From Thermodesulfobacteriota bacterium (GTDB lineage: Bacteria; Desulfobacterota_D; UBA1144; Nemesobacterales; Nemesobacteraceae), in NCBI GenBank assembly GCA_965116075.1, contig OZ220467.1, positions 684,580 through 748,579 on the forward strand: a DNA stretch of 64,000 bases, written 5' to 3'. Shown here one piece after another: positions 6,258 through 64,000 of the stretch; the stretch's first letter is position 1; each line of letters opens with the position of its first letter. The notes under the pieces were generated by a model that saw only the letters and a list, made by a program, of their open reading frames with translations, ran no database searches and had not been told where the DNA came from. The translations under genes were made by a program, and so were the position numbers.

Positions 6258-6267
6258 TAGTGTTGCG

Positions 6268-9686: not shown

Positions 9687-9744
9687 TATTTCGGCATCGG
9701 GGAGGCGCAAGATGATATTCGCCGCCGTCAAGGTGGTATTATTT

Positions 9745-16672: not shown

Positions 16673-16684
16673 AGGAGTTCAAAA

Positions 16685-17323: not shown

Positions 17324-17329
17324 AAAGGA

Positions 17330-18850: not shown

Positions 18851-19333
18851 CTATGACAACTCAAGCATCTTTTTCAGTCGAATACCACTTTGACTGAGTT
18901 GCCTGGCCTGAGGAGAGTTTTTTGGCATTTTCATGCTACCGCTGGCAATCCAGGTATATCGAATATCTTTATTGGTGCGGGCGGTCATCTTTTTGAGTTG
19001 TTCAGCATCTTTATTCAACCAGTCTTTTAGCCATTGTAATTTTTTGAGAACCGCTGAAACTTCCTTTGTCGTAGCCGGATGAACCTCTACCCAAACTGCC
19101 CATTGGCTCTTATGCTTTGGATGTTTATATCCTATACCATAGTCCCATCGGGGCGAATTAGCGTGGCGAGGCTCAAGTTTAAGAGCCAAGTCGAGATTTA
19201 TACTTCCTGTCAATCGTCGCGGGTTTGCGCATTTTATCAATTTCCCGTGCTTTTTACCTGATGCTTGCTTTTCACTTCGGTATGCGCAGTTCACCGGATG
19301 TGACGTAGACCTCACCGCATCTTTGAAATTCAT
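18851..19333 (-). CDS. 160-aa partner protein of the upstream ATPase (RloB/DUF4276-like?)
   Basis: Its start overlaps the ATPase stop by 4 nt (translational coupling). The product is basic, with no TM helix or signal peptide, and has no strong motif. Confidence 0.55.
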   Translation of the reverse strand: MNFKDAVRSTSHPVNCAYRSEKQASGKKHGKLIKCANPRRLTGSINLDLALKLEPRHANSPRWDYGIGYKHPKHKSQWAVWVEVHPATTKEVSAVLKKLQWLKDWLNKDAEQLKKMTARTNKDIRYTWIASGSMKMPKNSPQARQLSQSGIRLKKMLELS

Positions 19334-20517: not shown

Positions 20518-21265
20518 ACTCTTTGTATCGCCTTAACTATAACTCCGCATCATACCACAGATTACAACTACAAACTTACACGCTAAAAACTCGCCAATTA
20601 AACTATAAAATATAACACACAAAAAAGCCGAGGCATTTGCGCTGTCCAAAATGTGGATGCATATCAAAGGCTTTTAGAAGCCCCCAAAATACCCAAAAAA
20701 AGTCCTAAAATCGGCTAATGTAAGCCAAACCCCACAAATTCACTCCTCACTAAAATCGGTTGATATAACCTCTGTAAAAATTCCCCAAAAATAGAAATAA
20801 CTTGATAATCTCACTTGTTTTTAATGTCACTATAAAAGCGTCTTCATAGGTTGAAATTATAATTTGCTAGCAGAATCTTCTCTTCTCCTATAAGAGTGAG
20901 TGAATGTTGTTTTTGGTCATCCTCAAGGAAAAAGCCCCCACCCCAAAATCGTTGTAGCGTAATTATCTCAAGTTAACAACAAATTTATCATCTACAAAAG
21001 AAGTAAACCCGTAGCGGTTCCACAATCATCAAAGGGAATCAGCATCAAGCATCACTACATCGCAAATGCCTTTTTCTTTTTTTAGCTTTGCTCCTTTAGT
21101 TGATTTGTTATTCTTTGCGGTACGCTTTTTAGTTGGTAAAGTCCTTGAGAGTAAATTTTCAAGAATTGCGCGCAGGGCTGAGTTTGGAAAAAAGTCTAAT
21201 CAATGTCAGATGCGAAAAATGACTTTACAATTTTTTTTGTATCTGAGGGTGCCGGAGAATAAAAG

Positions 21266-27102: not shown

Positions 27103-27627
27103 TTAGAGAAGTTCTGAAAGCTTAAAGATAGAGAAGAACTTGTACCCCTTTTCCTTAAAGGTCTTTTCCGTATCTTTTCCTCTGTCAATGACGCAAAGAA
27201 CGCGATCAACCTCTGCGCCCTCTGCTTCCGCTTGCTCAATAGCCGTTAATACGGACCCTCCAGTGTTAATCACATCCTCAACCATAACAACCTTACAACC
27301 ATCTATCGGTTCGCCTTCTACGGCTTTTTTAGTTCCGTGCTCTTTTTTTTCTTTTCTCACTATGAATCCGCGAAGTGGAGAGTCTTCAGCGTTCTCTGAA
27401 TTATAACTTCTAAGAACAGTCGCCCCTACGATGGAACACGCTCCTACGGACAAAACGCAACCCACCGCTTTTATTTCCTTATCACTCGCAATCTCATCAA
27501 GGAATATTTTTGATATTAGGTTTATTCCTTTTGGAGATAGCGCGGTAATTCTAACATCAACATAAAAATCACTTGACTCCCGCGAAGCCAAAGTGAAATT
27601 TCCGCGCAGAACAGACTTGCTCCTCAA
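27103..27627 (-). CDS. pyrE: Orotate phosphoribosyltransferase
   Basis: The PRPP-binding motif VVMVEDVINTGGS is present. The N-terminus GNFTLASRESSDFYVD matches PyrE (GEFTLKSGRKSPYFFN). TTG is the only canonical start codon in frame. Confidence 0.85.
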   Translation of the reverse strand: MRSKSVLRGNFTLASRESSDFYVDVRITALSPKGINLISKIFLDEIASDKEIKAVGCVLSVGACSIVGATVLRSYNSENAEDSPLRGFIVRKEKKEHGTKKAVEGEPIDGCKVVMVEDVINTGGSVLTAIEQAEAEGAEVDRVLCVIDRGKDTEKTFKEKGYKFFSIFKLSELL

Positions 27628-27872: not shown

Positions 27873-27902
27873 TTGACAGAAATCATTAAAGTGTGGTAAA
27901 CT
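27873..27902 (+). promoter_or_regulatory. candidate sigma70 promoter of the giant gene (TTGACA - 18 nt - TGgTAAACT extended -10)
   Basis: ttgaca at 27873-27878 and tg.taaact at 27894-27902. The predicted +1 falls at ~27909, the A of an ATG, which would give a leaderless transcript. Confidence 0.4.
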
Positions 27903-27908
27903 GACAAA

Positions 27909-27983
27909 ATGACTCCTGTTACTCTACCTGCTGCTGCCCCCCCCCCCCCCTTAAAAATTCAGATGCGGGGCCGAAGCGCGTGA
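27909..27983 (+). promoter_or_regulatory. 24-codon uORF (MTPVTLPAAAPPPPLKIQMRGRSA*) containing the poly-C tract; its TGA overlaps the GTG start of the giant gene (GTGA)
   Basis: ATG 27909 is in frame 3 and the stop falls at 27981-27983. Adding one C to the tract would put this ATG in frame with the signal-peptide ORF. Confidence 0.35.
27937..27950 (+). repeat. homopolymeric C14 tract 30 nt upstream of the giant-gene start
   Basis: ctgctg-cccccccccccccc-ttaaaa. It lies exactly at the GC-content boundary. Confidence 0.9.
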
Positions 27984-28453
27984 GAGACCTGCGCGGGACG
28001 CTTCGCTTGGCGGCGCTGGCCGCCGTTCTCCTGTTCGCGCTGAGCGCGGGCCTTGCGCCCCAGGCTGCGCATGCCACGTGGGGGGTCTTGACGGCCACCC
28101 CGGGCGATGGGCAGGTTACGCTGACCTGGACTTGGACGCACTCAAGACCTAACTTCAGCCACTGGTTTTTCAGGTATGTAAGAGCTGGCCAACCTTATCC
28201 CGGGTATGACTGTTTGCCTAGATTTAATATCTGCTCCATTGACGACCCAAAGTACAGACTGACAGGGGCTCATCATCGCACCCAGACGATTACCGGACTC
28301 ACCAATGGGGTCGAGTACGTGTTTGAGGTACGCGCCCATGTTCCTAATACGGTTTTGGAGGTGAGGGCGACCCCGTCGCGCTATCCCATTGCCCCGAAGG
28401 GCGTACGCGACGCCGGGAACCAGCCAGGTCACCTTGTCCTGGGACGCTCATAA
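27980..28453 (+). CDS. giant secreted repeat protein, N-terminal segment (signal peptide plus first FN3-like domain), frame 2; separated from the main frame by a +/-1 frameshift
   Basis: MRDLRGTLRLAALAAVLLFALSAGLAPQAAHA-TWG... has the n-, h- and AHA-cleavage regions of a Sec signal peptide. It is followed by an FN3-like fold (TITGLTNGVEYVFEVRA). The frame ends at TAA 28451, while frame 3 opens at 28365. Confidence 0.7.
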   Translation: MRDLRGTLRLAALAAVLLFALSAGLAPQAAHATWGVLTATPGDGQVTLTWTWTHSRPNFSHWFFRYVRAGQPYPGYDCLPRFNICSIDDPKYRLTGAHHRTQTITGLTNGVEYVFEVRAHVPNTVLEVRATPSRYPIAPKGVRDAGNQPGHLVLGRS

Positions 28454-31400
28454 CGACTCGCGCGTCACGCGCTGGGAGTACGAGCAGACCAGCGGGGGCA
28501 CAACCGGGAACTGGAAGAAGATCTCCGCGAGCAATGCCTCAACCACCAGCCACACGGTGACGGGTCTGACCAACGGCACGCGGTACGGCTTCAGGGTCCG
28601 CGCGGCAAGCGATGGTCTCGGCGCCCCGTCGGCCTCCGTGTTCGCAACGCCACGGCCCGCTCCCTGCGCTTTGAGAATTGCCAGTGTCAGTGGGCCGGGT
28701 CCGACGGTCGCGTTCCGTTGGGGGCCCACCAAGGCAAATTGCGGCGACATCAGCCGGACGCAGGTTCAGAAGAAACTCGCCAGCAGCCCGGACTGGAGCG
28801 GGAGTGTCTGGGAAACCCTGTCCACGAATTACTATCGAAACTCCGGTGTCGCATTTACCGTGGACGACACCTTGCGGGTGAGTCTTGCCGAGGGCAACAG
28901 CTACCATGTGCGCGTCCGCGCGGTCAACGAAGGCCTCACCGTCACGTCCGAGGAAGGCGTCGCCGGCCCGCCGTCCTCGGAAACTCTTCTGTGGCTCGGT
29001 CCTCCAGGGTCTCCAACCGGGCTGAAAGCCGCGCCCTTTCAGGCTGCGATCCAGCTCACCTGGAACCAGCAGGCGTCAGGACAGAAGGTGACCGGGTGGG
29101 ATGTTCGGAGGAAGGAGGGCGCCGGCAGTTACGGCGAATGGGGCCGTATTACGGGTTCCGGCGCGAACACCGTCCTCCATTCGGCGAGCGGGCTGACGTC
29201 CGGGGTCGACTACACGTTTCAGATTCGGGCGGTGAACGCCGCCGGCGACGGTCGGGCTTCCGAAGAAGTGACCGAAACGCCGACCGGCGTGACGATCTCC
29301 CAACCCGCGCTGACGGTAGAAGAAGGTAGCAGCAGCACCTATACGGTGGTGCTTGATGCCGAGCCGTCGGCCGACGTCACGGTGATCGTGGGCGGCGCTG
29401 CGGCCGGCGTGTCGGTGAATCCGCCGTCGCTGGTCTTCTCGCTGCTGAACTGGAACCAGCCGCAGACGGTCACGGTCTCCGCGGCCGAGGACGACAACGC
29501 GGTTTCCGAACCGGTGACACTGACCCACAGCGCCAGCGGCGGAGGCCTGGACTCGGTGCTCATCCGCACGGTCGTGGTGACCGTGACGGAGAACGAAACG
29601 GCCGGATTCGCCCTGTCGGAGTCCGATCTGGAGCTGGAGGAGGGCGAGTCCGGCTCCTGGACGGTGGCGCTGACCTCCGAGCCGACCGCCGATGTGACGG
29701 TCACCATCAGCGGCGCCCCGAGCGGCGTGACGGTGACTCCGCCCACGCTGACGTTCACGGCCGCGGACTGGCAGACGCCGCAGACGGTGATGGTCGCGAC
29801 GGTCGACGATGAAGACGCGGCGCCGTTGCCCGCGGTGACGCTGACCCACAGCGCGTCCGGCGGCGACTACGGCTCGCTCACCGCCTCGGTTGCGTTGACC
29901 GTGACCGAGAACGACACGGCTGGGCTGACGTTCTCGGATGGCGACAAGGAGATCAGCCAGCTGGAGGTCATCGAGGACGGGTCGGGCAACTACATGGTGG
30001 CGCTGACGTCCGAGCCGACCGCCGATGTGACGGTGACCATCACGCCGGGGCCGGGCGACGTGACGGTGCAGTCGGGGTCGCTGACCTTCACTGCCCTCAA
30101 CTGGAGCGCCGCGCAGCAGGTGGTTGTCCTCGCGGCCGATGACGACGACGCGAAGACGGATCCTGCGGTGACACTGACCCACAGCGCGTCCGGCGGCGAT
30201 TACGGCTCGGTGACCGGCGTGCTCACGGTGGCCGTGCTGGAACATGATCCGCCCAGGAAGCCCGTGAACTTCAGCGCGACGGCGGGCGACAGCCAGGTGA
30301 CGCTGTCCTGGAACGATCCGCAGAATCCCGACATCAGCGGCTGGGAGTTCCAGCAGGCCGTGCGCGGCGCCAGCTTCGGCGCGTGGACGCCCATCCCCGA
30401 TTCCGACGCCGCGACCACCAGCCACACGGTCACGGGTCTGACCAACGGCGTCTTCTACAGTTTCAAGCTCCGCGCCGTCGCCCAGCTCCGGGAGTCCCTC
30501 AGGGGGGAGAAGGAAGACGCCGAGGGCGTCAGCTCCGACGAGATCAGCGCGCTGCCGCGCCGGGTGGGCAAGAACGTCACCCTGTTCGTCTCCGACGCAC
30601 AAATTGAAGAAGGACAGGCCGGCACGACACCTGTCTTGATCCGTCTCGTTCTCGGTGAGCCGGCGCCCGCTGGCGGGCTCGGCCTCGCCTTCGAGGTCGA
30701 TGGAACCTCGACGGCAACGGCGAGCGCGCCGGTCGCGACCAGTTGCTCGGCGCCAAACCCGATGGATGCGGACATGTGCTGGCCGCGGGGCGCCCGTGTT
30801 CTTGTGCCCGCAGCCCAGGACGTTGCCGTGCATCAAGTCGCTGTCCGAGGCGACCGGGCGATCGAGCCGAACGAGACCCTCGTGCTGAATGTCGTGCCCG
30901 CCATCGATGGCTGGACCGGGGACTCGGCCACCATCACCATCGTCGACGACGAGGTGGCGCCCGCCGCGCCGACGGGCCTCGCCGCCGGGCCGCGCAACGA
31001 ACAGGCGCTCCTCACCTGGGACGACCCGCAGAATCCCGGCATCACGCGCTGGGAGTTCCAGCAGAAGGAAGGCTCGGGCGGCAGCTACGGCGCCTGGACG
31101 GCCATCCCGGGTTCCGATGCCGCGACCACCAGCCACACGGTGACGGGCCTGACCAACGGCACGGAGTACGGCTTCAAGGTGCGCGCGGTGAGCCCCCGCG
31201 GCAACGGCGCCGAATCGGCCGAGGCGACGGTGACGCCGGGAGCGGTTCCCGCCGCGCCCACTGGCTTCAGGGCGACCCCAGGCGACGCGCAGTTAGAGCT
31301 GTTCTGGGATGCTGCCCCGGACAACTCCGGCATCCTTCGTTGGGAAGTGCGGTTCAGGAAGGGCAGTGAGGACTACCAACAACCGTGGGCGCCGATCCCG

Positions 31401-34400
31401 GGCGGCGCCGCAACAACGAAATTGGGGCCGCTCACCGCTGAAAACGGCATCGTGCGCACCTACCAGTTGCGCGCAGTGAATGCCGCCGGCCCCGGAGAGG
31501 CCGCCGAACTGACCGCGACGCCGCTTCCGCCCTTGCCCCGGAAGCCGGCGGCGCTGAAGGCGACCGCTGGCAACGCGCAGGTGGCTCTCGCCTGGGATCA
31601 TCCCCCTATCGTCCCTGGGAGTGATTTGCGCAAATACGAACTCCAGCGCAAGCAAGGCGCCAGCGTCAGCTACGGCGCCTGGACGCGGGTCGACATCGTT
31701 CGGGAAGATCTGGGATTCCTTCGGTACGAGGCGCGCCATGTGGTCACGGGCCTGACCAACGGTGAGACCTACAGCTTCAGGGTGCGCGAGTTGAATGAGG
31801 CCGGCGCCGGCCCCGCATCGGACGAGGTGACGGTGACGCTGCCGGCCGTCGTGCCCGCTGAACCGACCGGAGTCCGCGCCATCGCCAGCAACCGTCAGGT
31901 GCTGCTGCGCTGGGACGACCCGAACAACCCCGGCATCACCCGCTGGGAATTCCAGGGGAAGGAAGGCCCCAGCGTCAGCTACGGCCCCTGGGCGCCCATC
32001 TCCGGTTCCGACGCTGAGACCACCAGCCACACGGTGACCGGTCTGACGAACGACACCGTCTACGCCTTCAAGGTGCGCGCCGTGAACGCGACCGGCGCCG
32101 GCGCCGCGTCTTCCGAGGTCACGGCGACGCCGATCGCCGTGCCGGCGCCGCCGTCGGGCTTCCGGGCGACGCCGGACCACCGCAGCGTGATCCTGACCTG
32201 GGACGACCCGAAGGACAGCAGCATCACGCGCTGGCAGGTACGGTTCTTGCCGGAGACAGAGGAGTTCCAGGATGCGAACTCGAACTGGCTGGACATCCGC
32301 GGTTCCGGCGCGACCACCACGCGGCACGAAGTGGGCCGCTTGCCGTCCGGCCAGATCCACCGCTTCCAGGTGCGTGCTGTCAGCAATGCCGGCGTCGGGC
32401 CCGCGTCGGACGAGGCGCTCGCCGGCCCGGCGGATCCCGGCGTGACCGTCTCGACCTCCAGCCTGACGGTGGAGGAAGGCGGCAGCGGCGAGTACACGGT
32501 GAAGCTGAACACCTCGCCCCTGGGCCGCCAGGTGGTGATCGCCGTGGCCGGCGCGTCCGGCGAGCTGAGCGCGGCGCCGGCGACCCTCACCTTCACCGGC
32601 GCGAACTGGATGGAAGCGCAGACGGTCACGGTGACCCTGGCCGAGGACGGCGACGCGCAGACCGATGCCGCGCAGACCCTGACCCACAGCGCCCGGGGCG
32701 GCGGCTACGACCATGTGGACATCGCCTCGGTGACGGTGACGCTGGCGGAGAACGACCCGCCCCTGAAACCGGCGAACTTGCGCGCCATCGCGGGCAACGG
32801 CCAGGTCATGCTGTCCTGGGACGACCCGGAGAATCCCGACATCACCGGCTGGGAGTTCGCGCAGAAGACGGGCGACGGTAGCTATGGCGGCTTCACGGCC
32901 ATTTCCGGTTCCGACGCTGAGACCACCAGCCACACGGTGACGGGGCTGACGGACGGCACGCGGTACGGCTTCAAGGTCCGCGCCGTGAGCGCCGTCGGCG
33001 ACGGCGCCGAGTCGGACGAGGCGACCGCGACCGCGGGGCGGCCGAGTCTGAGCGTGGCGGATGTGACCGCGGCCGAGGACGGCACGTTCACCTTCACGGT
33101 GACGCTGGATCCGGCGGCGCCGGCGGACGTGACCTTCAAGTACGCAGTGACCGCGGAGAGCGGCGACACCGCGACGGCGGACACGGACTTCACCGAGGTG
33201 GCGGCGACCGCGGCCACCATCTCGGCGGGCGATACCACCTTCACGTTCACGGTGACGGTGGCCGACGACAAGCTCGACGAGGACGACGAGACCTTCACCG
33301 TGACGCTGTCGGAGCCGTCCGCCAACGCCCAGCTCGGCGACGCCGCGGCGACCGGCACGATTACCGACAACGACGCCTCGCCGGTGCTGGCCGATATCGA
33401 CAACCTCACGCTCAGGCTCGGCCGGACCGTGGACATCACCGCCACGGCGACGGACGCCGACGCCGGCGACACGATCACCTACGCCTGGACGCGCAAGGCC
33501 GGCGAGACCACGCCGCCGCTGCCGAGCAGCCCGGCCCCGGACCTGGACAAGGCCCGGCTCACCTTCACCCCGACCGAGGCCGGCGTCTACACGATGACGG
33601 TGACGGCGAGCGACGGCGACAGCAACGGCAACAAGCACGGCAACACGGACACCGGGGAAGTGGTCATCACCGTGGTCGGCAAGGCCGCGGTGTCCGTGCC
33701 GGCGGCGCTGTCCGTCACCGAGGGCACGGACACGAACGCCACGGTGACGGTGACCACCGAGGAGGCGTTCGGCGAGGACGTGACCTTCGACGTGAGCTAT
33801 GGCGACACCAGCGCCACCGGAGCGACCAATGCGGCAGACGGCGACTACGACAACGACGCCGTGACGTCGGTGACGTTCTCGGGCGCCGACACCACGAAGA
33901 CCATCGCGATCCCGATCAACGACGACGGGCTCGACGAGGACGACGAGACCTTCACGGTCATCATCGCGCTGGCGGAGGGCAGCGCCCTGCCGGCCGGTTT
34001 CGCGGACGGCAACCTCACGACGACGGTGACGATCGTCGACAACGACCACTCGCCGGTGCTGCCCGACTATCCACCCACCGGAACGATCCGGGTGGGCCAG
34101 GAGGTGGATCTCTCGGCCGAGGCGACGGACGAGGACGGGGACACGGTGACGTACACCTGGACGCGCAAGGCCGGCGAGACCACGCCGCCGCTGCCGGACG
34201 GCACGAACCTGAATCAGGCCCAGCTACTCTTCACGCCGACCGAAACCGGCGCCTACACGATGACGGTGACGGCGAGCGACCCGTACGGCAACACCGACAC
34301 CGCGACGGTGGCCCTCACGGTGGTCCGAGCGCACGTGGTCTCGGCGCCGCCGGCGCTGTCGGTGACCGAGGGCACGGACGCGAACGCCACAGTGACGGTG

Positions 34401-55400: not shown

Positions 55401-58400
55401 ATAACGGATGATGACGAGGCTACGGCTAGCGGGCATGAGATTTCAGTGGGGGATGCGACGGTAACCGAGGGTGACTCTGGCGCGCGTACGAGTATGAATT
55501 TCACCGTGACGTTAAGTGGTACGCCGAGTCATGAGGTTAAGGTTCGCGCTGTTGCCAAGGACGGTACGGCAGAGGAAGGCGCTGGGAAGGACTTCAGGCA
55601 GTACTCTGGAAACAAGGAGGTGGTTTTTGCCGCGGGCGCGACGGGTAGTGGATTAAGTAAGACGGTGGTGGTGCAGGTACTGGGGGATGATATAGATGAG
55701 GGAGAACAAGAGGAGTTTACTCTGCAGTTGAGTAGCATAAGGACGGAAGATGCGCGTGTGGTATTTGCCGGGAACAAAGGGAACATAGAAGCCACTGGTA
55801 CGATAACGGATGATGATACGGCGGGCGTGACGTTGTCTGAGTCTGCGCTGACGGTGGAAGAAGGTGGTAGCGGGACCTACGAGGTGAAGCTTGACACTAA
55901 ACCTTCAAGTGAAGTGACGGTGACGGTGAGCGGTGAGTCAGGTGAAGTGACGGTTATGGGTTCGCCGCTGACGTTCACGCCGGCCAACTACAACGTGGCG
56001 CAGACGGTGACGGTGAATGCGGGGACGGATGCGGACGCGACGGATGACACTGCGACGCTGACGCATGCGGCATCCAGTACCGATACGAACTACGGTTCTT
56101 CTCTGGAAGTGGAAGACCTTTCGGTGACGGTGACGGATACGACGCCGACGTTGCAGCTATTGACGGACCCTGCGGCGGTGACGGAGGGGACAAGCATAAG
56201 TCTCTCGGTGTCTTCGGACCGCGCGTTAACGGGCGATCTGACGGTGAGTCTGACGCTTGCGGACCGTGGACCAAGCGGTTTTGATGCGGACGACATTCAG
56301 AGTACGCTGGGTCCGCGGGACTTCACCGCTTCGTTCGGCGACACCGCCGGCACGACAGGTACGGTGAGTATTCCGACTATCTCAGATGCCACTTCAGAGG
56401 GCGCGGAGACATACCGGATAACGCTTAACGACGGTACGGGGTACGTAGTGGGCGCCAAGACTACGGCGGATGGGGCGGTGAATGACCCGCTGGCAAAGCC
56501 GGCGGGACTTACGGCCAGTCCCGGCAATACGCGGGTGGAGTTGTCGTGGGACGACCCTGAGAACGGTAGCATAACGGTTTGGCAGGCGCAGCATAGCAAG
56601 GTAGGCGAGAGTTGGGGTTCCTGGACGGATATTAGCGGTTCTGACGCGAGCACTACCACTCACGCGGTGACTGGTCTGGATAACGGTAGCGAGTACCGTT
56701 TCAGGATACGAGCGAAGAGCAGTAGTGAGGTGGGACCGCAGTCGGCTGTGGTGAGAGCGACGCCGCGTGTAGTGGTGAAGCCGGTGGTGACGGCGACTGC
56801 GGGCGCCGGGTCGGTGACGTTGAGTTGGCCTGCGCAGCCGGGTTCCGGCGTGACGGCGTGGGGCTACCAGTCGAGTAGCGATGGTGGTACGAGCTGGACG
56901 TCGACGAAGATCGTGAACGACGGCAGCGCGACGAGCGTGGTGGTGAAGGGGCTTACCAACGGTACGGAGTACACGTTCCGGGTGTTTGGTCGCGCTGGCT
57001 CTGCGCAGTCGTCCTGGTCAGACCACGTGAAGGCGACCCCGTTGGCGAAGCCTGGAAGGCCGGCGGGTTTTTCGGTAAGCGGTGGTGACGCGCAGGTGGA
57101 GTTATCGTGGAACGACCCTGACAACGACACTATAACGGTTTGGCAGGCGCGTTACGGCAAGGTGGGCGAAGACTGGGGCGATTGGACAGATATAGAAAGT
57201 TCTGACGCCGATACTACGAGTCACACGGTGAGTGGGCTTGATAACGGCAGCGAGTACCGTTTCAAGGTACGGGCGGTGAACAGTAGCGGTAACGGTCGTG
57301 AGTCGGCTACGCTTAAAGCGACGCCGGAGGAGAATAGGGTAGCCAAGCCGGTCTTGAGAGCTACGGCAGGTGACGGGTCAGTGACATTGAGGTGGAAGAG
57401 ACAGGCCGGAGTTACGAGTTGGGTATATCAGTACAAAAGCGGTACGCAGGAGTGGAGCGCGCGACCACAGAAGACTGTAACAGGAGGAAACACGACGAGC
57501 GTGGTGGTGACGGGGCTTACGAATGATACGGAATACACGTTTCGGATGTTTGCCCGCGCTGACTCTGCGCAGTCTGCGTGGTCGGACTTCGCGAAGGCGA
57601 CGCCGAAGGCGCCGGCGCCCGCTATGCCGACGGGGCTTGTGGCAAGCGCGGGCAATGCGCAGGTGGAGTTGTCATGGTCCGACCCTGAGAACGACAGCAT
57701 AACGGTTTGGCAGGCGCGTTACGGCAAGGTAGGGGGATCATGGGGCGCTTGGACGGACATCTCCGGTTCTGACGCGGATACCACAAGCCACACCGTATCA
57801 GGGCTTACCAACGGCAGCGAGTATCGTTTCCGAATCCGGGCGAAGAACAGCAGTGGGCCAAGCGACCCGTCGGCTGTGGTGAGAGCGACGCCGGAGCAGC
57901 CGGAGACCGCGGGCGTGACGGTGTCAGTGTCGTCGCTGACGGTGAAGGAAGGAGGCAGCAGGACCTACAAGGTGAAGCTTGACACCGCGCCGGGGGCGAA
58001 TGTGACGATAACGGTGGGTGGCGCATCGGGTGATGTGACGGTGGACCCGGCTTCCCTTACGTTCACGGCGGGCAACTACAACACGGCGCAGACGGTGACG
58101 GTGAGCGCGGCTGCGGACGCGGACACGACGGATGATGCGGTGACGCTGACGCATACGTCGGCCAGCACCGATACGAACTACGGCGCCTCGCTTGACATAG
58201 ACGACGTCTCGGTGACGGTGACGGATACGACGCCGACGTTACAGCTATTGACGGCTCCTGCGGAAGTGGCGGAGGGGTCAAGCATAAGTCTTTTGGTGAC
58301 ATCGGACAAGGCCCTGCGTGGTACGTTAAAAGTGAAGTTGACGTTATCTGACCGGGACTCAAGTGGATTTACAGCGGCGGATATTGTTGGTACGCTCGGG

Positions 58401-61400
58401 CCGCGAGAGTTCACGGTGAACTTCGGCAATACCCGTAGAACGACAGGTACGGTGAGCATTCCGACCAGCGCGGACGCGACTGCGGAGGGAGAGGAGACAT
58501 ACCGGATAACGCTTAACGCCGGTACGGGCTATGCGGTGGGTGACGATGCGACGACGGAGGGCGCGGTGAAAGACCCGCTGACAAAGCCGACGGGCTTTAG
58601 CGTGAGTCCTGGCAATGCGCAGGTGGAGTTGTCGTGGAACGACCCGGATAACGACACCATAACGGGTTGGCAGGTACAGTACGGCAAGGCAGGGAAGTCA
58701 TGGGGTTCCTGGACGGATATTAGCGGTTCTGACGCGAGCACCACTACTCACACCGTGAGTGGGCTTACGAACGGTAGCGAGTATCGGTTCAGGATACGAG
58801 CGGTGAACAGTCTGGGCGATGGACCGAAGTCGTCTATAAAAACCACGACGCCGCGTGTAGTGGTGAAGCCGGTGGTGACGGCGACTGCGGGCGCCGGGTC
58901 GGTGACGTTGAGTTGGCCTGCGCAGCCGGGTTCCGGCGTGACGGCGTGGGGCTACCAGTCGAGTAGCGATGGTGGCACGAGCTGGACGTCGACGAAGATC
59001 GTGAACGACGGCAGCGCGACGAGCGTGGTGGTGAAGGGGCTTACGAACGGTACGGAGTACACGTTCCGGGTGTTTGGTCGCGCTGGCTCTGCGCAGTCAT
59101 CCTGGTCAGACCACGTGAAGGCGACCCCGTTGGCGAAGCCTGGAAGGCCGGCGGGTTTTTCGGTAAGCGGTGGTGACGCGCAGGTGGAGTTATCGTGGAA
59201 CGACCCTGACAACGACACTATAACGGTTTGGCAGGCGCGTTACGGCAAGGTGGGCGAAGACTGGGGCGATTGGACGGATATAGAAAGTTCTGACGCCGAT
59301 ACTACGAGTCACACGGTGAGTGGGCTTGATAACGGCAGCGAGTACCGTTTCAAGGTACGGGCGGTGAACAGTAGCGGTAACGGTCGTGAGTCGGCTACGC
59401 TTAAAGCGACGCCGGAGGAGAATAGGGTAGCCAAGCCGGTCTTGAGAGCTACGGCGGGTGACGGGTCAGTCACATTGAGGTGGAAGAGACAGGCCGGAGT
59501 TACGAGTTGGGTATATCAGTACAAAAGCGGTACGCAGGAGTGGAGCGCGCGACCACAGAAGACTGTAACAGGAGGGAGCGCGACGAGCGTGGTGGTAACG
59601 GGGCTTACGAATGATACGGAATACACGTTTCGAATGTTTGCCCGCGCTGGCTCTGCGCAGTCTGCGTGGTCGGACTTCGTGAAGGTGACGCCGAAGGCGC
59701 CGGCGCCCGCTGCGCCGACGGGACTTACGGCAAGCGCGGGCAATGCGCAGGTGGAGTTGTCATGGTCCGACCCTGAGAACGACAGCATAACGGTTTGGCA
59801 GGCGCGTTACGGCAAGGTGGGAAGATCATGGGGCGCTTGGACCGACATCTCCGGTTCTGACGCCGATACCACAAGCCACACCGTATCAGGGCTTACCAAC
59901 GGCAGCGAGTATCGTTTCCAAATCCGCGCGAGAAACAGCAGTGGACCAAGCGACCCGTCGGCTGTGGTGAGAGCGACGCCGGAGCAGCCGGAGACCGCGG
60001 GCGTGACGGTGTCAGTGTCGTCGCTGACGGTGAGGGAAGGAGGCAGCAGGAACTACAAGGTGAAGCTTGACACCGCGCCGGGGGCGAATGTGACGATAAC
60101 GATAGGTGGCGCATCAGGCACGGATGTGACGGTGGACCCGGCTTCCCTTACGTTCACGCCGGCCAACTACAACACGGCGCAGACGGTGACGGTGAGCGCG
60201 GCCGCGGATGAGGACACGACGGATGATGCGGCGACGCTGACGCACGCCGCATCTGGCGCTGATGGCTACGATGCCTCACTAGTAATAAAAAGCGTCTCGG
60301 TGACGGTGACGGATACGACGCCGACGTTACAGCTATTGACGGCTCCTGCGGAAGTGGCGGAGGGGTCAAGCATAATCCTGACGGTGACATCGGACAAGGC
60401 CCTGCGTGGTACGTTAAAAGTGAAGTTGACGTTATCTGACCGGGACTCAAGTGGATTTACAGCGGCGGATATTGTTGGTACGCTCGGGCCGCGAGAGTTC
60501 ACGGTGAACTTCGGCAATACCCGTAGAACGACAGGTACGGTGAGCATTCCGACCAGCGCGGACGCCACTGCGGAGGGAGAGGAGACATACCGGATAACGC
60601 TTAACGACGGTACGGGCTATGCGGTGGGTGACGATGCGACGACGGAGGGCGCGGTGAAAGACCCGCTGACAAAGCCGACGGGCTTTAGCGCCACTAAGGG
60701 TGACAGGCAGGTGGAGTTGTCATGGAACGACCCGGATAACGACACTATAACGGGTTGGCAGGCGCAGTACGGCAAGGTAGGGCAGTCATGGGGCGCTTGG
60801 ACGGATATTAGCGGTTCTGACGCGAGCACCACTACTCACACGGTGAGTGGGCTTACGAACGGTAGCGAGTATCGGTTCAGGATACGGGCGGTGAGCAGTC
60901 TGGGCGATGGACCGAAGTCGTCTATAAAAACCGCGACGCCGAAGGCGGTATCGCTAAGCGTGGCTAACGTGACGGCGGATGAGGATGGGACGTTCGCGTT
61001 CACGGTGACAGCCAGGCCGGCGCCATCATCAGAGGTGAGTTTTAAGTATACGGTGACGGCAGAGAGTGGAGACACGGCGACTGCGGGTACGGACTTCACG
61101 GCGGTTGAGACAGCGGCAGCGAAGACGATTGCGGCAAACGCGACCACAGCGACGATAACGGTGTCGGTGACCGATGATGGTCTTGATGAGAAAAACGAGA
61201 CGTTCACGGTGACGCTATCGGAGCCATCCGAAGGCGTGATGATAAGCGATGCCACGGCGAAGGGCAGGATAAGGGATAATGACAGTTCACCGGAGTTGGC
61301 GGAGATAACAAACAAGACGGTCATGCTGGGAGATGATGTGGATATTACAGCTTCTGCGACGGATGCGGACGGCGATGCCATAAGTTACGCCTGGACGCGT

Positions 61401-64000
61401 AAGTCCGGAGAGACATCGCCTGCCATACCGGGTGGCGCCAGCGTGAGCCAGGCGCGGTTAACGTTTACGCCACCGGATATAGGTACGTACACGATGACGG
61501 TGACGGCGTCTGACGGCAACGGCAACAGCGATACGGAGAGCGTGGTGATCACGGTCACCAACGTTGCGCCGGCCCAGCCGACGGGTTTATCGGCCAAGGC
61601 GAGACATGGACAGGTGGAGTTGTCATGGACAGACCCGGACAACGACAGTATAACGGTTTGGCAGGCGCAGTACGGCAAGGTGGGCGCCGCCTGGGGTGGT
61701 TGGACGGACATCACCGGTTCCGACGCTGATACGACGAGGCACACGGTGACGGGACTTGACAACGGTAGCGAGTACCGCTTCCGAATCCGGGCGAAGAACA
61801 GCAGTGGAACGAGCGACCCGTCAGTTGTGGTGAGAGCGACGCCGACCGCCTCAGGCGTGACGATCTCACCGACCGCGCTTAGGGTGGATGAAGGGAGTAG
61901 CAATACCTACACGGTGGCGCTGGACACGGAGCCTTCAAGTAACGTGACGATAACGGTTGGCGGCGCATCGGGTGAAGTGACGGTGGACCCGGCTTCCCTG
62001 ACGTTCACGCCGGCGAACTACAACACGGCGCAGACGATAACGGTGAACGCCGCAGCCGACGGAGATGCGGACGACGATACGGCGACGCTGACGCACGCCG
62101 CATCCGGTAGCGATACGAACTACGGCGCCTCACTCAACATAGACGATGTCTCGGTGACGGTGACGGACACGACGCCAACGCTGCAGCTGCTAACCGACCC
62201 GGCGGCGGTGACCGAGGGTACGGATATAAGCCTCACGGTGACCTCCGACCGAGAGCTGACGGGTGATCTGACGGTGAGTCTGACCCTGGCGGCTCGTGGT
62301 TCAAGCGCCTTCGACGCCGATGACATTACCGGCGCGCTCGGTCCACGGAACTTCACCGCCAGCTTCGGCAACACAGCCAGCTCTACCGCCACGGTGACGA
62401 TACCGACCAGCCCGGATTCAGATGTGGAGGACGACGAGACCTACCGGATAACGCTTGGCGACGGGACCGGTTATGCGGTCGGCGACGATGTGACCGCCGA
62501 CGGTACGCTAAACGACAGTACCGCGAAGACGGTTTCAGTGCCAACGGCGTTAACGGTGGCGGAGAATGCGGGCACTGCGCAAGTAACGATAACGGCATCT
62601 AAAGCTTTTGGTGAAGCGGTGACGTTTAACATCACTTACGGCGGCACGGCGACAGGGGCGTCAGACCCGTCAAACGGAGACTACGACAATGATGCGCTCG
62701 CCTCTGTGAGTTTTAACGCGACTGAAACGACTAAGGACATAGCGATACCGATAACGGATGATGACGAAGCTGAGTCCGACGAGACTATAACGGTAACGAT
62801 AGCGTCAGCAAGCGCGCTACCCGATGGGTTTACGCTGGGTAACTCAACCACCACGGTGACAATCACGGACAATGATACGCCGGAGCCCTTGGGTACGATG
62901 AGCGTGACGGTGGGCGATGGGCAAGTGACGTTAACATGGGAAGACCCCTCAGATGACAGAATAGCCAAGTGGCAATACCAACAGAAGCCCGCAGGGGGTG
63001 GAGAGGGTAGTTCCGGGAATAGTCTCCGCCTTCAATCTCAGAATGCAGGGGAAGAGAGTTACGGGCCCTGGATAGATATTCCGAATTCAGGGCCAACCAC
63101 GACCAGTCATACGGTGACGGGATTGACCAATGGCACGCAATACAGCTTCAGGGTAAGAGCCCTAGATTCTTCCGGAAACGTGCTTAAGACCTATCAGGAG
63201 GCAAGCGCCACGCCAAGAGTAAAGACCACCGGCGTCTCACTGAGCATTGCGGATGTGTCAGCGGATGAAGGCGGGACGTTCGCATTTACGGTGACGGCTA
63301 CGCAAGCGCCATCGTCACAAATAAGTTTCAAATACACGGTAACAGCGGAAGGAGAAGATACTGCGGTGGCAGGAGAGGACTTCACTGCGGTTAGTACGGC
63401 TACGGAGGGGAGCATACTGGCTGACGCCACTACGACGACAATAACGGTGTCGGTGACGGATGACAGCGTTGATGAGGATGATGAGACGTTCACGGTGACG
63501 CTGTCAGAACCGTCCGAAGGGGTAAGCATTTCAGACGGAGTGGCCAAAGGGACGATAATAGATAATGACATAGCGGCTGCGGTGACGGTTGCGCCGACTG
63601 AATTGGTAGTGGAAGAAGGAGCGAGCGGCGCGTATACGGTGGCGCTGGATGCTAAGCCCACGGGTGAGGTGACGATAACGGTAAGCGGGATGGCGGGAGA
63701 TGTGACGGTGGATAACTCATCGCTTAAGTTCACCGTGGACAGTTGGGATACTGAGCAGACGGTGACGGTAAACGCGTCGGAAGATGATGACGCGGTTGCG
63801 GATGCCGCGGTAATGCTGACGCATAGCGCGTCAGGCGGTGGTTACGATGCGGTAGAGATAGACTCGGTGGAGATAACGGTAACGGAAGATGACACCGCAG
63901 GGGTGAAGGTGGAGCCTACGTCGTTGACAGTGAAGGAAGGGTCAAGCGGTACATACGCGGTAGCGCTTGAGACCGAGCCTACGGATGAGGTGACGATAAC
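28365..64000 (+). CDS. giant secreted multi-domain adhesin-like protein, main reading frame (frame 3), >=11,878 codons, 3' end beyond the window
   Basis: No stop codon in frame 3 from 28365 to 64000; the frame was checked at 29280, 35640, 50211 and 63900. The translation is a continuous array of FN3 (..QVTLSWDDP.N..IT.WEYQQK....YG.WT.I.GSDA.TTSHTVTGLTNGT.Y.F.VRAVN..G), Calx-beta (..DDDLDEDDETFTVTLSEPS.GV.L.DATATGTITDND), cadherin-like (D.DGDTVTY.WTRK.GETTP) and other beta-sandwich modules. It was not listed in the ORF track because it has no stop in the window. Confidence 0.85.
29283..30250 (+). repeat. three tandem ~105-aa 'TLTH' modules (Calx-beta-like variant: LTVEEG.SG.YTV.L...P.A.VTV.V.G..G.V.V.P.SLTFT..NW...QTVTV.A..D.D.....TLTH.ASG..Y)
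   Basis: Seen directly in the frame-3 translation. The same module recurs at roughly 32440, 38160, 39530, 45810, 55810, 57900, 59990, 61860 and 63590. Confidence 0.6.
30947..32440 (+). repeat. run of five consecutive FN3 domains
   Basis: Each ~95 aa with the W..D/NP.N..IT.WE.Q start and the Y.F.VRAVN..G...S..V.ATP end. Confidence 0.7.
33041..33375 (+). other. canonical Calx-beta domain (example; more than 20 in the gene)
   Basis: PSLSVADVTAAEDGTFTFTVTLDPAAPADVTFKYAVTAESGDTATADTDFTEV...TFTVTVADDKLDEDDETFTVTLSEPSANAQLGDAAATGTITDND. Confidence 0.75.
33376..33680 (+). other. cadherin-like / He_PIG-type Ig domain (example; about 9 copies)
   Basis: ASPVLADIDNLTLRLGRTVDITATATDADAGDTITYAWTRKAGETTPPLP....ARLTFTPTEAGVYTMTVTASDGDSNGN. 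The same DxDGDTVTY.WTRK.GET motif recurs at about 34060, 34700, 36280, 41925, 47770, 53110, 53760 and 61270. Confidence 0.65.
34967..37205 (+). repeat. dispersed duplicate of a ~650-bp unit (FN3-variant plus Big_2-like Ig) at 34967-35625 and 36543-37205, ~97% identical
   Basis: VLTGVTSTSAAVVNLAWTHSGTAPGDFIGDPGGA...SITSSDTATATINPPSLTFTAQNYNMAQDVTVTGVKAGSATIGHAFRLTGA occurs twice. The off-frame ORFs 35240-35701 and 36827-37294 in the track are near-identical. Confidence 0.8.
38840..41915 (+). repeat. duplicated pair of Calx-beta domains (38840-39525 and 41225-41915, ~85-90% aa identity)
   Basis: ALSIADVTAAEDGTFTFTVTA...ELDEVDETVTLKLSNATNASIATATATGTITDDD matches VSLSVADVTAAEGGTFTFTVTA...ELDEVDETVVLKLSNESNATIPTATATASGTITDDD. 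Confidence 0.7.
42565..43990 (+). repeat. run of five to six consecutive FN3 domains
   Basis: Repeated ..GQVTLSWTDP.N..IT.W.YR.K....YGEW....GS...TTSHTVTGLTNGT.Y.FQVRA. Confidence 0.7.
48415..53121 (+). repeat. three near-identical (>98%) tandem copies of a 1,569-bp unit (523 aa: two-Cys FN3-like, FN3, FN3, FN3, Calx-beta)
   Basis: The unit boundaries gcgccgtgtaaggtggaggtggtggatgtatcaacg recur at 48415, 49984 and 51553. The artefactual minus-strand ORFs 48488/50057/51626, 49262/50831/52400 and 49559/51128/52697 are spaced exactly 1569 apart and are almost identical. An older diverged copy lies at ~46490-48414. Confidence 0.9.
54600..55818 (+). repeat. three tandem Calx-beta domains
   Basis: The block ISVE(D/A)(M/V)T(V/I)(E/A)EGD.G......FTVTLSG.PS..V.......DG.........DF........F.AGATG..LSKTV.V.VLGD..DEE.E.F.L.L..........F.......TGTITDDD occurs three times. 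Confidence 0.7.
56488..60950 (+). repeat. tandem repeat of a ~2,088-bp unit (696 aa: FN3a, FN3b, FN3a, FN3b, FN3a, TLTH module, Calx-like module), 2 copies plus a partial third, 95-100% identical
   Basis: Unit starts (PLAKPAGLTASPGN.../PLTKPTGFSVSPGN.../PLTKPTGFSATKGD...) lie at 56488, 58573 and 60661. The artefactual minus ORFs 56864/58952, 57428/59516, 57805/59893 and 58529/60617 are spaced 2088 apart. Confidence 0.85.

What the first reader, a model, noticed from the sequence alone, without database searches (positions are those of the whole stretch)
27980..64000. Single open reading frame of at least 11,900 codons encoding a secreted FN3 / Calx-beta / cadherin-like mega-protein, continuing beyond the window
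Frame 3 has no stop codon from 28365 to 64000 (35.6 kb). Upstream of it, in frame 2, is a 157-codon ORF with a textbook Sec signal peptide and a first FN3 domain. The translation consists almost entirely of about 100 beta-sandwich modules. Proteins of this size and architecture are at the extreme of known bacterial gene lengths, alongside the giant adhesins and the giant genes reported from Omnitrophota and Chlorobium-type symbionts. They are rarely assembled correctly. The ORF track missed the gene entirely because it has no stop in the window, and every tracked ORF in this region is an antisense artefact.
Basis: partly seen in the sequence, partly recalled or inferred. Interest (0 to 1): 0.8.

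Follow-up and report, generated by a model that had tools for sequence, protein, structure and literature searches.

The report
Giant phase-variable adhesin gene, sponge symbiont
The window holds about 36 kb of a roughly 12,500-residue surface-fibre (adhesin) gene in a small sponge-symbiont chromosome; its first third is nearly identical to a gene in an unrelated Nitrospira, and it carries a poly-C on/off tract that recurs across this gene family.

Summary
Frame 3 is open from 28365 to 64000 (11,878 codons). It is preceded by a 157-codon frame-2 ORF with a Sec-type signal peptide. The product has about 112 beta-sandwich modules: 55 FN3, about 48 Calx-beta-like and 9 PKD/He_PIG. No cadherin domain was found.

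New findings:
- **Host.** It is a Dadabacteria-like chromosome of 2.39 Mb. Host GC3 is 0.43, against 0.88 falling to 0.66 in the gene.
- **Shared 5' part.** The 5' ~11 kb is 91-99% identical in DNA to a gene in a circular 3.0-Mb sponge Nitrospira genome. dN/dS is about 0.4 and indels are multiples of 3, which points to recent inter-phylum exchange.
- **Poly-C tract.** The C14 tract at 27937-27950 recurs as C14-C17 at the 5' end of all five relatives' genes fetched, in three other genomes. It lies in an N-terminal coding extension and sets the reading frame, as in a contingency-locus switch.
- **Frameshift.** The frame-2 to frame-3 break is a window-specific 2-nt deletion.

The 3' end and read-level support could not be checked.

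The parts
27873..27902 (+). Promoter-like site TTGACA-18-TAAACT (10 of 12 matches, TG before the -10) in AT-rich host-type DNA
   Evidence: This is a consensus match only. It ends 7 nt before ATG 27909.
27909..27983 (+). Leader ORF (frame 3), MTPVTLPAAAPPPPLKIQMRGRSA*, which reads the poly-C tract as poly-proline. Its TGA stop overlaps GTG 27980 (GTGA). With C12, C15 or C18 it fuses in frame to the signal peptide.
   Evidence: Simulation. Homologous N-terminal extensions appear in relatives.
27937..27950 (+). Poly-C tract (C14): candidate slipped-strand phase-variation switch
   Evidence: It is the only C/G homopolymer of 7 nt or more (or A/T run of 9 or more) in the 64 kb. About 7e-5 such tracts are expected by chance in the 28 kb of host-type DNA. 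C14-C17 tracts sit at the same place in all five relatives' genes fetched (L033; L034, two genes; L036; L037).
27980..28075 (+). Sec-type signal peptide (32 codons; AHA|T cleavage motif)
   Evidence: Read directly from the sequence. The h/c-region is identical to the Nitrospira-context copies, and the signal-peptide type is conserved across the family. No SignalP run was possible.
27980..28453 (+). Frame-2 ORF: signal peptide plus first, atypical FN3 module, the predicted distal tip of the fibre
28400..28410 (+). Site of a window-specific 2-nt deletion. The window reads GGCGTACGCG where L001, L036 and L037 read GGCGTCACCGCG. This shifts frame 2 to frame 3.
   Evidence: The site is not in a homopolymer.
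28365..64000 (+). Main open frame (frame 3), 11,878 codons, about 112 beta-sandwich modules, running off the window
28004..39281 (+). Segment 91-99% identical in DNA to the gene on circular Nitrospira contig ctg6925c (L036). GC3 is about 0.9.
   Evidence: dS rises from 0.009 (28.4-30.6 kb) to 0.165 (35-37.2 kb).
48367..53110 (+). Tandem repeat, three copies of 1,566 nt (97-97.5% identical), i.e. three copies of a 522-aa five-module unit
55815..60941 (+). Tandem repeat, two copies of 2,088 nt (89.5% identical)
59625..63998 (+). Region colinear with the whole passenger of same-chromosome paralog P0245 (residues 16-1437). From 61896 onward identity is 74-100% per 100 aa. The window ends at P0245 residue 1437 of 1981.

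Best explanation
This is a real chromosomal gene of a sponge-associated Dadabacteria-like bacterium, filed by NCBI under Thermodesulfobacteriota. It encodes a surface fibre of about 12,500 residues.

**How it most likely works (inferred steps marked).**
- The protein is exported by Sec through an N-terminal signal peptide.
- By colinearity with three paralogs on the same chromosome, it is anchored in the outer membrane by a C-terminal autotransporter-type domain, a linker helix plus a beta-barrel, lying about 544 residues beyond the window (inferred).
- About 112 FN3, Calx-beta-like and PKD modules would form a rod of roughly 0.4-0.5 micrometre (inferred from typical module lengths). Calx-beta modules are calcium-binding folds, so calcium may stiffen the rod, as in other giant adhesins (inferred).
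- The atypical N-terminal modules form the distal tip, which would contact sponge matrix or other cells (inferred).

**Origin (shown).** The gene is a mosaic. Its 5' third, the tip end, was very recently exchanged with a co-occurring sponge Nitrospira, and the break in homology falls inside the signal-peptide coding region. Its 3' end is shared with resident paralogs.

**Regulation (inferred from anatomy).** Expression is gated by a hypermutable poly-C tract in an N-terminal coding extension. Tract length decides whether the upstream ATG is in frame with the signal peptide. As sequenced (C14) it is out of frame.

**State in this assembly (shown).** This copy also carries a private 2-nt deletion. 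In this strain the gene may therefore be switched off or freshly inactivated.
For: **Open frame and domains.**

**Host identity and chromosomal context.**
- PolA is 100% identical to P0121 on a 2,386,527-bp contig. The nearest named PolA proteins are Candidatus Dadabacteria / Thermodesulfobacteriota MAGs.
- Gene order is conserved with those genomes.

**Foreign composition.** Host GC3 is 0.43. The gene's GC3 is 0.88 falling to 0.66.

**Near-identity to a Nitrospira-context gene.**
- L036 and L037 are flanked by gltB/gltD. That gltB clusters at 90% identity or more with 'Nitrospira sp. SB0678_bin_10'.
- DNA identity is 94.8% over 9.4 kb and 99% over the first 2 kb.
- It evolved as coding sequence: dN/dS is 0.38-0.41, and all shared indels are multiples of 3.

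**Anchor.**
- P0245, P0250 and P0332 lie on the same 2.39-Mb contig. Each has its own signal peptide, and P0245/P0250 are 92-100% identical to the window's last 200 aa.
- Their C-terminal 472 aa match PF03797 at 39 bits (cutoff 26).
- The AlphaFold2 model has pLDDT 82.6 and shows a helix plus about 18 strands.
- 117 of the 450 fetched relatives, up to 7.8 kaa long, carry this domain at their very C-terminus.

**Poly-C switch.**
- All six tracts seen (window plus five relatives' genes) are C14-C17.
- Length differs between strains: L036 has C16, L037 has C15.
- In L034b/P0068 the codon before GALGRT is AAG, so translation must start upstream and read through the tract.
- At least 10 family proteins read the tract as a run of 4-11 prolines.

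**Junction is not a random break.** The segment from the tract through the spacer and GTG to the n-region is homologous to the family's 5' architecture. A promoter-like site lies just upstream.
Against: - The 3' end is not in the window, and the source chromosome could not be fetched. The barrel anchor and the total length rest on colinearity with paralogs.
- No reads were available, so the junction, the C14 length and the 2-nt deletion cannot be verified. Long homopolymers are where HiFi consensus is least reliable.
- No independent assembly spans the junction between the PRT gene (the phosphoribosyltransferase-domain gene at 27103-27627, minus strand) and the adhesin gene. L001 starts at window 28261, and the JGI scan found only 27-29% relatives.
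- The closest relative of the host (L035, 82% PolA identity) has an RTX-like gene at this position, not this gene.
- No AT-amelioration is seen in the shared part: GC is 0.684 against 0.690. This fits a very recent transfer, but it would also fit a chimera.
- A passenger of 12 kaa made of beta-sandwiches is far outside experimentally studied type Va autotransporters. The modelled barrel has about 18 strands, not 12.
- As sequenced, the gene has two frame interruptions, so function in this strain is uncertain.
Confidence: 0.6

Rival explanations
1. Assembly chimera. The 43% GC chromosome was wrongly joined at about 27.95 kb to a giant gene that really belongs to a Nitrospira in the same sample. 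In that case there was no transfer, and the Dadabacteria-like cell does not carry this 5' part.
For: - GC steps from 0.43 to 0.70 within about 50 nt.
- The 5' part is 96-99% identical to Nitrospira-context copies and shows no amelioration.
- The window allele lies only just outside the allele cloud of one metagenome.
- The nearest host relative lacks the gene at this site.
- No independent assembly of the junction was found.
Against: - The break coincides with a gene start, not a random position. The segment from poly-C through the spacer and GTG to the n-region matches the family's 5' architecture. The window's n-region and leader differ from the Nitrospira copies, whose tract lies about 280 nt further upstream.
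- Sequence to the left of the junction is unique, so no repeat exists there that could mediate a graph mis-join.
- The 3' end is near-identical to three paralogs on the same 2.39-Mb contig, so a chimera would need two joins.
- The related MAGs come from PacBio HiFi plus metaMDBG (PMC12648040), where reads of many kb would span the junction. That the window comes from such data is an inference.
Confidence: 0.12
2. The gene is real but dead. The 2-nt deletion, together with the out-of-frame C14, marks a freshly pseudogenised copy of an imported adhesin that this strain no longer makes.
For: - The deletion is private to the window, not in a homopolymer, and separates the signal peptide from the other 11,878 codons.
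- L036 and L037 each carry one private frameshift at a different site, and L001 carries several. Frequent inactivation may therefore be typical of these genes.
- Nothing in frame 3 downstream of 28365 provides an alternative signal peptide.
Against: - 35.6 kb remain free of stops and of further frameshifts.
- dN/dS is about 0.4.
- The frameshifts in L001 are homopolymer-type and look like consensus errors, so some of these 'frameshifts' may be assembly errors.
- A single recent lesion cannot be told apart from a sequencing or polishing error without reads.
Confidence: 0.3
3. The poly-C tract is not a switch. It is only a conserved poly-proline-coding or 5'-UTR element, and translation starts at the GTG/ATG just before the signal peptide whatever the tract length.
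For: - Most family members have GTG or ATG directly before GALGRT, and gene callers often start there.
- Window GTG 27980 gives a complete signal peptide without the extension.
- Assembled homopolymer lengths are error-prone.
Against: - A 14-17-nt homopolymer is far above the length at which slippage becomes frequent (general knowledge; PMC2831843 on coding homopolymeric tracts).
- It is kept as pure C rather than mixed proline codons in at least four genomes of different composition.
- Length differs between loci and between two strains.
- L034b/P0068 has AAG, not a start codon, before GALGRT.
- The peptide upstream of the tract is conserved and has an SD-like GGGGA before its ATG.
Confidence: 0.3
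4. The protein is a type 1-secreted RTX-type giant adhesin (LapA/MpIBP/SiiE kind), or it continues for many more kb, rather than ending in an autotransporter barrel.
For: - Tandem Ig-like and Calx-beta extender arrays are the hallmark of T1SS giant adhesins (general knowledge).
- One module type gives a sub-threshold, full-length match to the LapA-domain repeat PF20579 (E 0.004).
- The host's nearest relative encodes RTX (HemolysinCabind) proteins nearby.
- The 3' end was not seen.
Against: - A cleavable Sec signal peptide is present. T1SS adhesins lack one (general knowledge).
- There is no HemolysinCabind hit in the 11,878 aa.
- The last 1,450 aa are colinear with paralogs that end in a PF03797 barrel 544 aa later.
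- 117 relatives carry that barrel at their C-terminus.
Confidence: 0.08

Closest known systems
Classical (type Va) autotransporter adhesins and their translocators (AIDA-I, EstA, NalP, Hbp)
   Different: The passenger is an array of about 112 beta-sandwich modules, not a beta-helix. It is roughly 3-10 times longer than studied passengers (from memory). The modelled barrel has about 18 strands and 472 residues, against 12 strands and about 280 residues. For the window's own gene the barrel is inferred, not seen.
Giant T1SS RTX adhesins (Pseudomonas LapA, Marinomonas MpIBP, Salmonella SiiE)
   Same: These are also very long surface fibres built from tandem Ig-like, calcium-binding extender modules with ligand-binding parts at the distal end. 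Internal tandem duplications of multi-module units are also shared. What it works like: a long-reach adhesin.
   Different: This gene has a Sec signal peptide and no RTX repeats in 11,878 aa. The predicted anchor is a C-terminal barrel, so the distal tip is the N-terminus, not the C-terminus.
FN3/cadherin 'attachment' genes of sponge symbionts and their lateral transfer (Robbins et al. 2021, PMC8163846)
   Same: That study reports FN3-domain genes enriched in sponge MAGs, including Dadabacteria and Nitrospirota lineages. It found attachment genes among the lateral transfers detected between distant lineages.
   Different: Here there is one concrete, near-complete locus on a chromosome-scale contig. 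The recombination boundary lies inside the signal peptide, identity to a different phylum reaches 99% over 2 kb, and a defined anchor type and a poly-C tract are present. None of these is described in that paper.
Homopolymer-tract contingency loci of pathogens (Bordetella fim promoters with C-stretches, Neisseria opc/opa, Haemophilus and Campylobacter surface genes). Recalled from memory; general treatment in PMC2831843.
   Same: A long C homopolymer sits at the 5' end of a surface-adhesin gene. Its length differs among loci and strains, and it determines the frame between the start codon and the mature protein.
   Different: It is found in uncultured sponge symbionts of several phyla and is conserved across a horizontally shared gene family. 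Switching has not been shown, because no read-level or expression data were available.
Giant genes of 'Chlorochromatium' (Cag_0614/0616, from memory) and Omnitrophota (bioRxiv 10.1101/2023.11.21.568195)
   Same: These too are rare bacterial ORFs over 10,000 codons, interpreted as cell-cell attachment proteins of symbiotic or predatory bacteria.
   Different: Those genes are 2-7 times longer and have different domain content. PolA places this host among Dadabacteria, not Chlorobium.

Membership tests
Type Va autotransporter | Cleavable N-terminal Sec signal peptide | tested here: met
   Positively charged n-region, hydrophobic h-region and an AHA|T site at 27980-28075. The same signal-peptide type is conserved across the family. 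This was judged by inspection; no SignalP run was possible.
Type Va autotransporter | C-terminal beta-domain (Pfam PF03797) at the extreme C-terminus | not testable with these tools
   The 3' end lies outside the window and the source contig could not be fetched. In same-chromosome paralogs colinear with the window's end the feature is met: 39 bits against a cutoff of 26.
Type Va autotransporter | Linker alpha-helix followed by a 12-stranded barrel | tested here: inconclusive
Type Va autotransporter | Beta-helical passenger with autochaperone | tested here: not met
   The passenger consists of FN3, Calx-beta-like and PKD beta-sandwiches.
T1SS RTX giant adhesin | No Sec signal peptide; C-terminal RTX repeats and T1SS signal | tested here: not met
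   A Sec-type signal peptide is present. There is no HemolysinCabind hit in 11,878 aa. The extreme C-terminus was not seen.
T1SS RTX giant adhesin | Long tandem array of Ig-like, calcium-binding extender modules | tested here: met
   About 48 Calx-beta-like and 55 FN3 modules, plus multi-module tandem duplications.
Cadherin-domain protein | Pfam Cadherin (PF00028) or cadherin-like domain | tested here: not met
   No cadherin family is among the Pfam hits. The orphan module's best folds are PapD/ASH and Calx CBD1/2.
Simple-sequence contingency locus (phase-variable gene) | Hypermutable homopolymer in the promoter or 5' coding region of a surface gene | tested here: met
   C14 at 27937-27950, unique in the 64 kb. 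It lies between ATG 27909 and the signal peptide.
Simple-sequence contingency locus (phase-variable gene) | Tract length varies among strains or loci and changes the reading frame | tested here: met
   Tract lengths are C14, C14, C15, C16, C16 and C17 across six genes. L036 (C16+T, out of frame) and L037 (C15, in frame) are about 97.6%-identical strains. The window needs C12, C15 or C18 to be in frame.
Simple-sequence contingency locus (phase-variable gene) | Length heterogeneity within one population and matching on/off expression | not testable with these tools
   No reads, transcripts or proteomes were available.
Horizontally transferred gene segment | Nucleotide identity far above that of the genomes, atypical composition, and a different genomic context in donor and recipient | tested here: met
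   Identity is 95-99% between genomes of different phyla. GC3 is 0.88 against a host value of 0.43. The contexts are gltBD versus PRT-MT-PolA (methyltransferase = MT). The caveat is that a chimera is not formally excluded.

The most novel reading that the evidence does not exclude
Symbionts from different phyla living in the same sponge share a common pool of giant adhesin 'tip' cassettes. They swap the distal, N-terminal third of autotransporter-anchored fibres by homologous recombination between the conserved signal-peptide region and the repeated modules. The whole family is run as contingency loci, switched on and off by a conserved poly-C tract in an extended signal peptide. Under this reading, host attachment in the sponge microbiome would be a community-level, phase-variable, horizontally traded trait.
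Probability: 0.3. Interest if true: 0.8.

Novelty: new variant of a known kind. Interest (0 to 1): 0.62.

Why it matters
How hundreds of bacterial lineages stay attached inside sponges is an open question. So far it has been addressed mainly through domain-enrichment statistics on fragmented MAGs.

This locus offers a concrete and testable model with four parts:
- a defined fibre architecture;
- a defined anchor type, a large and undescribed subfamily of autotransporter-like barrels carrying beta-sandwich arrays of up to at least 12 kaa;
- direct evidence of recent inter-phylum exchange of the tip-encoding end;
- a simple-sequence switch that can be counted in existing HiFi reads.

It also matters for annotation. 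ORF finders that drop open-ended ORFs miss the gene, homopolymer and polishing errors fragment it, and protein databases capped by length omit it.

Tried and rejected
- **Chlorobium chlorochromatii Cag_0614/0616.** I considered this because the host GC is 44%. I rejected it because the PolA relatives are Dadabacteria/Thermodesulfobacteriota MAGs.
- **Fetching the source contig.** An exact 60-mer from the window end was not in the species-representative genomes. Exact-product look-ups of PolA, DacB, KsgA, P0121, P0245 and P0250 all failed. The downstream sequence was therefore never obtained.
- **Independent copy of the junction.** L001 starts too far in, at window 28261. The JGI metagenome scan with the N-terminal domain gave only 27-29% relatives.
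- **'Host-type' n-region.** I dropped this idea because the ALGRTxRRL motif is family-wide.
- **Amelioration test.** There is no AT-ward drift in the window lineage: 154 strong-to-weak (GC to AT) against 85 weak-to-strong (AT to GC) changes, close to what a GC of 0.69 predicts.
- **Programmed +1 frameshifting at 28404.** No slippery motif is present. All three relatives are simply 2 nt longer.
- **Rfam and tRNA scans of the window.** Nothing was found.
- **PDB sequence search with the barrel domain.** No hit.
- **Plus-strand ORFs 6208-7068 and 8422-9249.** They have no family match and turned out to be antisense to IS630-type transposases.

Full report
**1. Observation**

Frame 3 is open from 28365 to the end of the window (35,636 nt, 11,878 codons). 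The next longest open stretch in any frame is 3,420 nt.

A frame-2 ORF at 27980-28453 (157 codons) begins with a typical Sec signal peptide...LFALSAGLAPQAAHA|TW, and continues into an FN3-like module.

Pfam finds about 40 fn3, about 22 Calx-beta and about 10 PKD/He_PIG/K319L stretches, and no cadherin. HMMs built from the protein itself resolve 112 modules covering 88% of it: 55 FN3, 31 Calx-beta, 17 of a Calx-like 'TVxEG' type and 9 PKD.

The 'TVxEG' module is an orphan in Pfam. Its only match is a sub-threshold hit to the LapA-domain repeat. It models confidently (pLDDT 92.5) as an Ig-like sandwich closest to PapD/ASH and Calx CBD1/2 folds.

The long antisense ORFs have no family match.

**2. 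Host and context**

The upstream 28 kb is ordinary chromosome: SufD, DinD, CysH, ThrC, KsgA, DacB, PolA, a methyltransferase and a phosphoribosyltransferase-domain gene (PRT).

PolA is 100% identical to a protein on a 2,386,527-bp contig held by NCBI and ENA. The nearest named relatives (67-69% identity) are Candidatus Dadabacteria, labelled 'Thermodesulfobacteriota bacterium' MAGs, with chromosomes of 1.5-2.4 Mb.

Gene order is conserved with those genomes, but none has a giant gene beside the methyltransferase and polA. The nearest relative (82% PolA identity, L035) shares the PRT-methyltransferase-PolA order but has a 488-aa RTX-like gene beyond PRT.

Such UUID-named MAGs and 'ctgNNNNl/c' contigs come from PacBio HiFi plus metaMDBG sponge metagenomes (PMC12648040). 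That the window shares this origin is an inference.

**3. Composition**

GC jumps from 0.43 to 0.65-0.70 within about 50 nt at 27.95 kb. Pooled host genes have GC3 of 0.43.

| Region of the gene | GC3 | Third-position bias |
|---|---|---|
| 28-40 kb | about 0.9 | G3 about equal to C3 |
| 41-47 kb | about 0.8 | G3 0.55, C3 0.25 |
| 48-64 kb | 0.6-0.7 | G3 0.46, C3 0.17 |

The gene is thus compositionally foreign and internally heterogeneous.

**4. Relatives of the 5' part**

The N-terminal 2,000 aa find a 90%-identity cluster (P0001, P0241, P0242), all from ENA assembly ERZ24894574.

P0242 lies on a circular 3,010,340-bp contig, downstream of gltB/gltD. That gltB clusters at 90% or more with 'Nitrospira sp. 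SB0678_bin_10' and other sponge Nitrospira MAGs. There the gene is called as 1,309 + 9,323 aa.

L036 aligns to window 28004-37414 at 94.8% DNA identity, and then to 34975-39281 at 91%, because of a module copy-number difference. Homology starts inside the signal-peptide coding region, and upstream sequences are unrelated.

Synonymous divergence rises from 0.009 (28.4-30.6 kb) to 0.165 (35-37.2 kb). dN/dS is 0.38-0.41, and all shared indels are multiples of 3. This is the pattern of real coding alleles under purifying selection with a recent recombination tract.

In Nitrospira the gene (GC3 0.82-0.91) is only moderately above its flanks (0.73). The window lineage shows no drift toward AT. The window allele sits just outside a 2-3% allele cloud formed by L001, L036 and L037.

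**5. Frame interruptions**

All three relatives read GGCGTCACCGCG where the window reads GGCGTACGCG. This 2-nt deletion is what separates the frame-2 ORF from frame 3. It is not in a homopolymer.

L036 and L037 each have one private frameshift elsewhere. L001 has several of homopolymer type, which are probably consensus errors. Without reads I cannot say whether the window's lesion is a mutation or an error.

**6. The 3' end and the anchor**

The last 2,000 aa have no relative at 90% or more. They do hit P0245 (1,981 aa) and P0250 (2,148 aa) on the same 2,386,527-bp contig, and P0332 (2,070 aa) is a third such protein.

These are separate genes with their own signal peptides. Residues 10420-11877 of the open-frame translation are colinear with P0245 residues 16-1437. 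Identity is 74-100% per 100 aa over the last 700 aa and 92-100% over the last 200. The window ends at P0245 residue 1437 of 1981.

The evidence on the remaining part of P0245 is as follows:
- Its last 472 aa pass Pfam's Autotransporter beta-domain cutoff.
- With a 19-sequence alignment they model (pLDDT 82.6, pTM 0.81) as a 33-residue helix followed by about 18 long strands.
- Foldseek gives only generic outer-membrane barrels.

The same domain closes 117 of the 450 relatives fetched, including proteins of 6-7.8 kaa.

I infer that the window's gene ends about 544 aa downstream in such a barrel. That gives about 12,550 aa and about 37.7 kb, or 1.6% of the chromosome.

The module family as such is very common: 50,456 representative proteins at E <= 1e-3 and 7,052 at E <= 1e-30.

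**7. The poly-C tract**

C14 at 27937-27950 is the only long homopolymer in the window. About 7e-5 are expected by chance in the 28 kb of host-type DNA.

All five relatives' genes for which I hold DNA have one at the 5' end:

| Locus | Tract |
|---|---|
| L033 | C14 |
| L034, gene a | C17 |
| L034, gene b | C16 |
| L036 | C16 |
| L037 | C15 |

In each locus it is the only or nearly the only such run.

In L033 and L034 the tract lies in a conserved N-terminal extension, MT.T.(D/G)NIGM...SASRA.TPV-Pn-NESG.GAEPV-GALGRT.... That extension has an SD-like GGGGA before its ATG and a conserved TTGATA-17-TATCAT promoter.

In the window, the segment from the tract through the spacer and GTG to the n-region aligns with this architecture.

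Simulating tract lengths gives these results:
- Window ATG 27909 joins the signal peptide only with C12, C15 or C18, giving MTPVTLPAAAPPPPLKNSDAGPKRVRDLRG....
- As sequenced (C14), the 24-codon leader ORF ends in a TGA that overlaps GTG 27980.
- L034a (C17) and L037 (C15) are in frame.
- L036 (C16+T) is out of frame, although it is a strain only 2.4% diverged from L037.

In L034b/P0068 the codon before GALGRT is AAG, so translation must begin upstream of the tract. At least ten family proteins read the tract as a run of 4-11 prolines.

This is the anatomy of a slipped-strand contingency switch. Switching itself is not shown, and HiFi homopolymer lengths are uncertain.

I found no paper describing this in sponge symbionts. 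Homopolymeric tracts in coding genes as a general regulatory device are treated in PMC2831843.

**8. Chimera or transfer?**

Arguments against a mis-join:
- The boundary falls at a gene start that has family-type 5' architecture.
- The sequence to its left is unique.
- The window's leader and n-region differ from the Nitrospira copies.
- The 3' end matches same-chromosome paralogs.

Arguments for it:
- No independent assembly or reads were available.
- The shared part shows no amelioration.

I put a chimera at about 0.12.

Lateral transfer of FN3/cadherin attachment genes between sponge-symbiont lineages has been reported statistically (PMC8163846). The phenomenon is therefore expected. This locus is a concrete, high-resolution case of it.

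**9. Verdict**

This is a real and very large, though not record-size, member of a widespread and undescribed family of autotransporter-anchored beta-sandwich fibres of sponge symbionts. It is mosaic through recent inter-phylum exchange. It probably phase-varies through a conserved poly-C tract. In this assembly it is interrupted by a private 2-nt deletion.

Giant genes over 10 kaa are documented elsewhere (bioRxiv 10.1101/2023.11.21.568195).

I rate novelty as a new variant of a known kind, and interest at 0.62.

Noticed in passing
window 6254-7510 and 8435-9694: Two direct copies (93-97% identical) of an IS630-type insertion sequence. The transposase (HTH_32 plus DDE_3) is on the minus strand. 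The plus-strand ORFs 6208-7068 and 8422-9249 are antisense artefacts. The local GC of 0.53 stands out from the host's 0.43.
   Followed up: yes
window 3565-4122 (-): Fragment of an rve-type integrase (weak Pfam hit), probably the remnant of another mobile element.
   Followed up: partly
window about 16300-21200: This stretch is absent from the syntenic region of the Dadabacteria relatives L002, L022 and L024. It contains a metallo-beta-lactamase-fold gene, several ORFs without family matches, and an AAA_15/AAA_21 (AbiEii-like) ATPase at 19330-20517 (-). It may be a small defence or accessory island.
   Followed up: partly
window 40000-64000: Along the gene, third-position C falls from about 0.5 to about 0.17 and T rises, while G stays at 0.45-0.55. 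GC skew reaches +0.3. This is a strand-asymmetric shift, either C-to-T on the coding strand or a different donor codon usage (NNG-rich). It remains unexplained.
   Followed up: partly
L036 about 13851; L037 about 15100; L001 several sites: L036 and L037 each carry one private frameshifting indel at a different position, and L001 carries several. Those in L001 are in G/C homopolymers and look like consensus errors. The one in L036, on a circular 3-Mb contig, is a complex change.
   Followed up: partly
L033 17670-19037; L034 8544-9863, 18790-20076, 20356-21696: In two other sponge-metagenome genomes (1.62 and 2.23 Mb), the 2.5-2.7-kaa family members are each flanked by genes of about 440 aa with AAA_16 (PF13191) domains on the opposite strand. 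No such gene is next to the window's copy.
   Followed up: no
L033 about 10025-10040 versus L034 about 10072-10090: Just upstream of the poly-C tract there is a (CG)n dinucleotide run that differs by one unit between genomes, (CG)4 against (CG)5. This is a second simple-sequence site that would also change the frame.
   Followed up: no
window 27979-27983: The stop of the 24-codon leader ORF overlaps the GTG of the signal-peptide ORF (GTGA). This arrangement is typical of translational coupling, so the C14 state might allow low-level reinitiation rather than being fully off.
   Followed up: no
L035 386-1852 and 10337-11641: The host's nearest relative carries two genes of about 450 aa with collagen-like GxP repeats and HemolysinCabind (RTX) repeats. 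One of them sits exactly where the window has the giant gene.
   Followed up: no
window 42201-42575 (open-frame residues 4612-4736) and about 28668-28965: Two stretches of about 100-125 aa, each with a pair of cysteines (CxxxIxS...NCG motif), resemble each other and are not covered by the four module HMMs. They may be a distinct insert domain.
   Followed up: no
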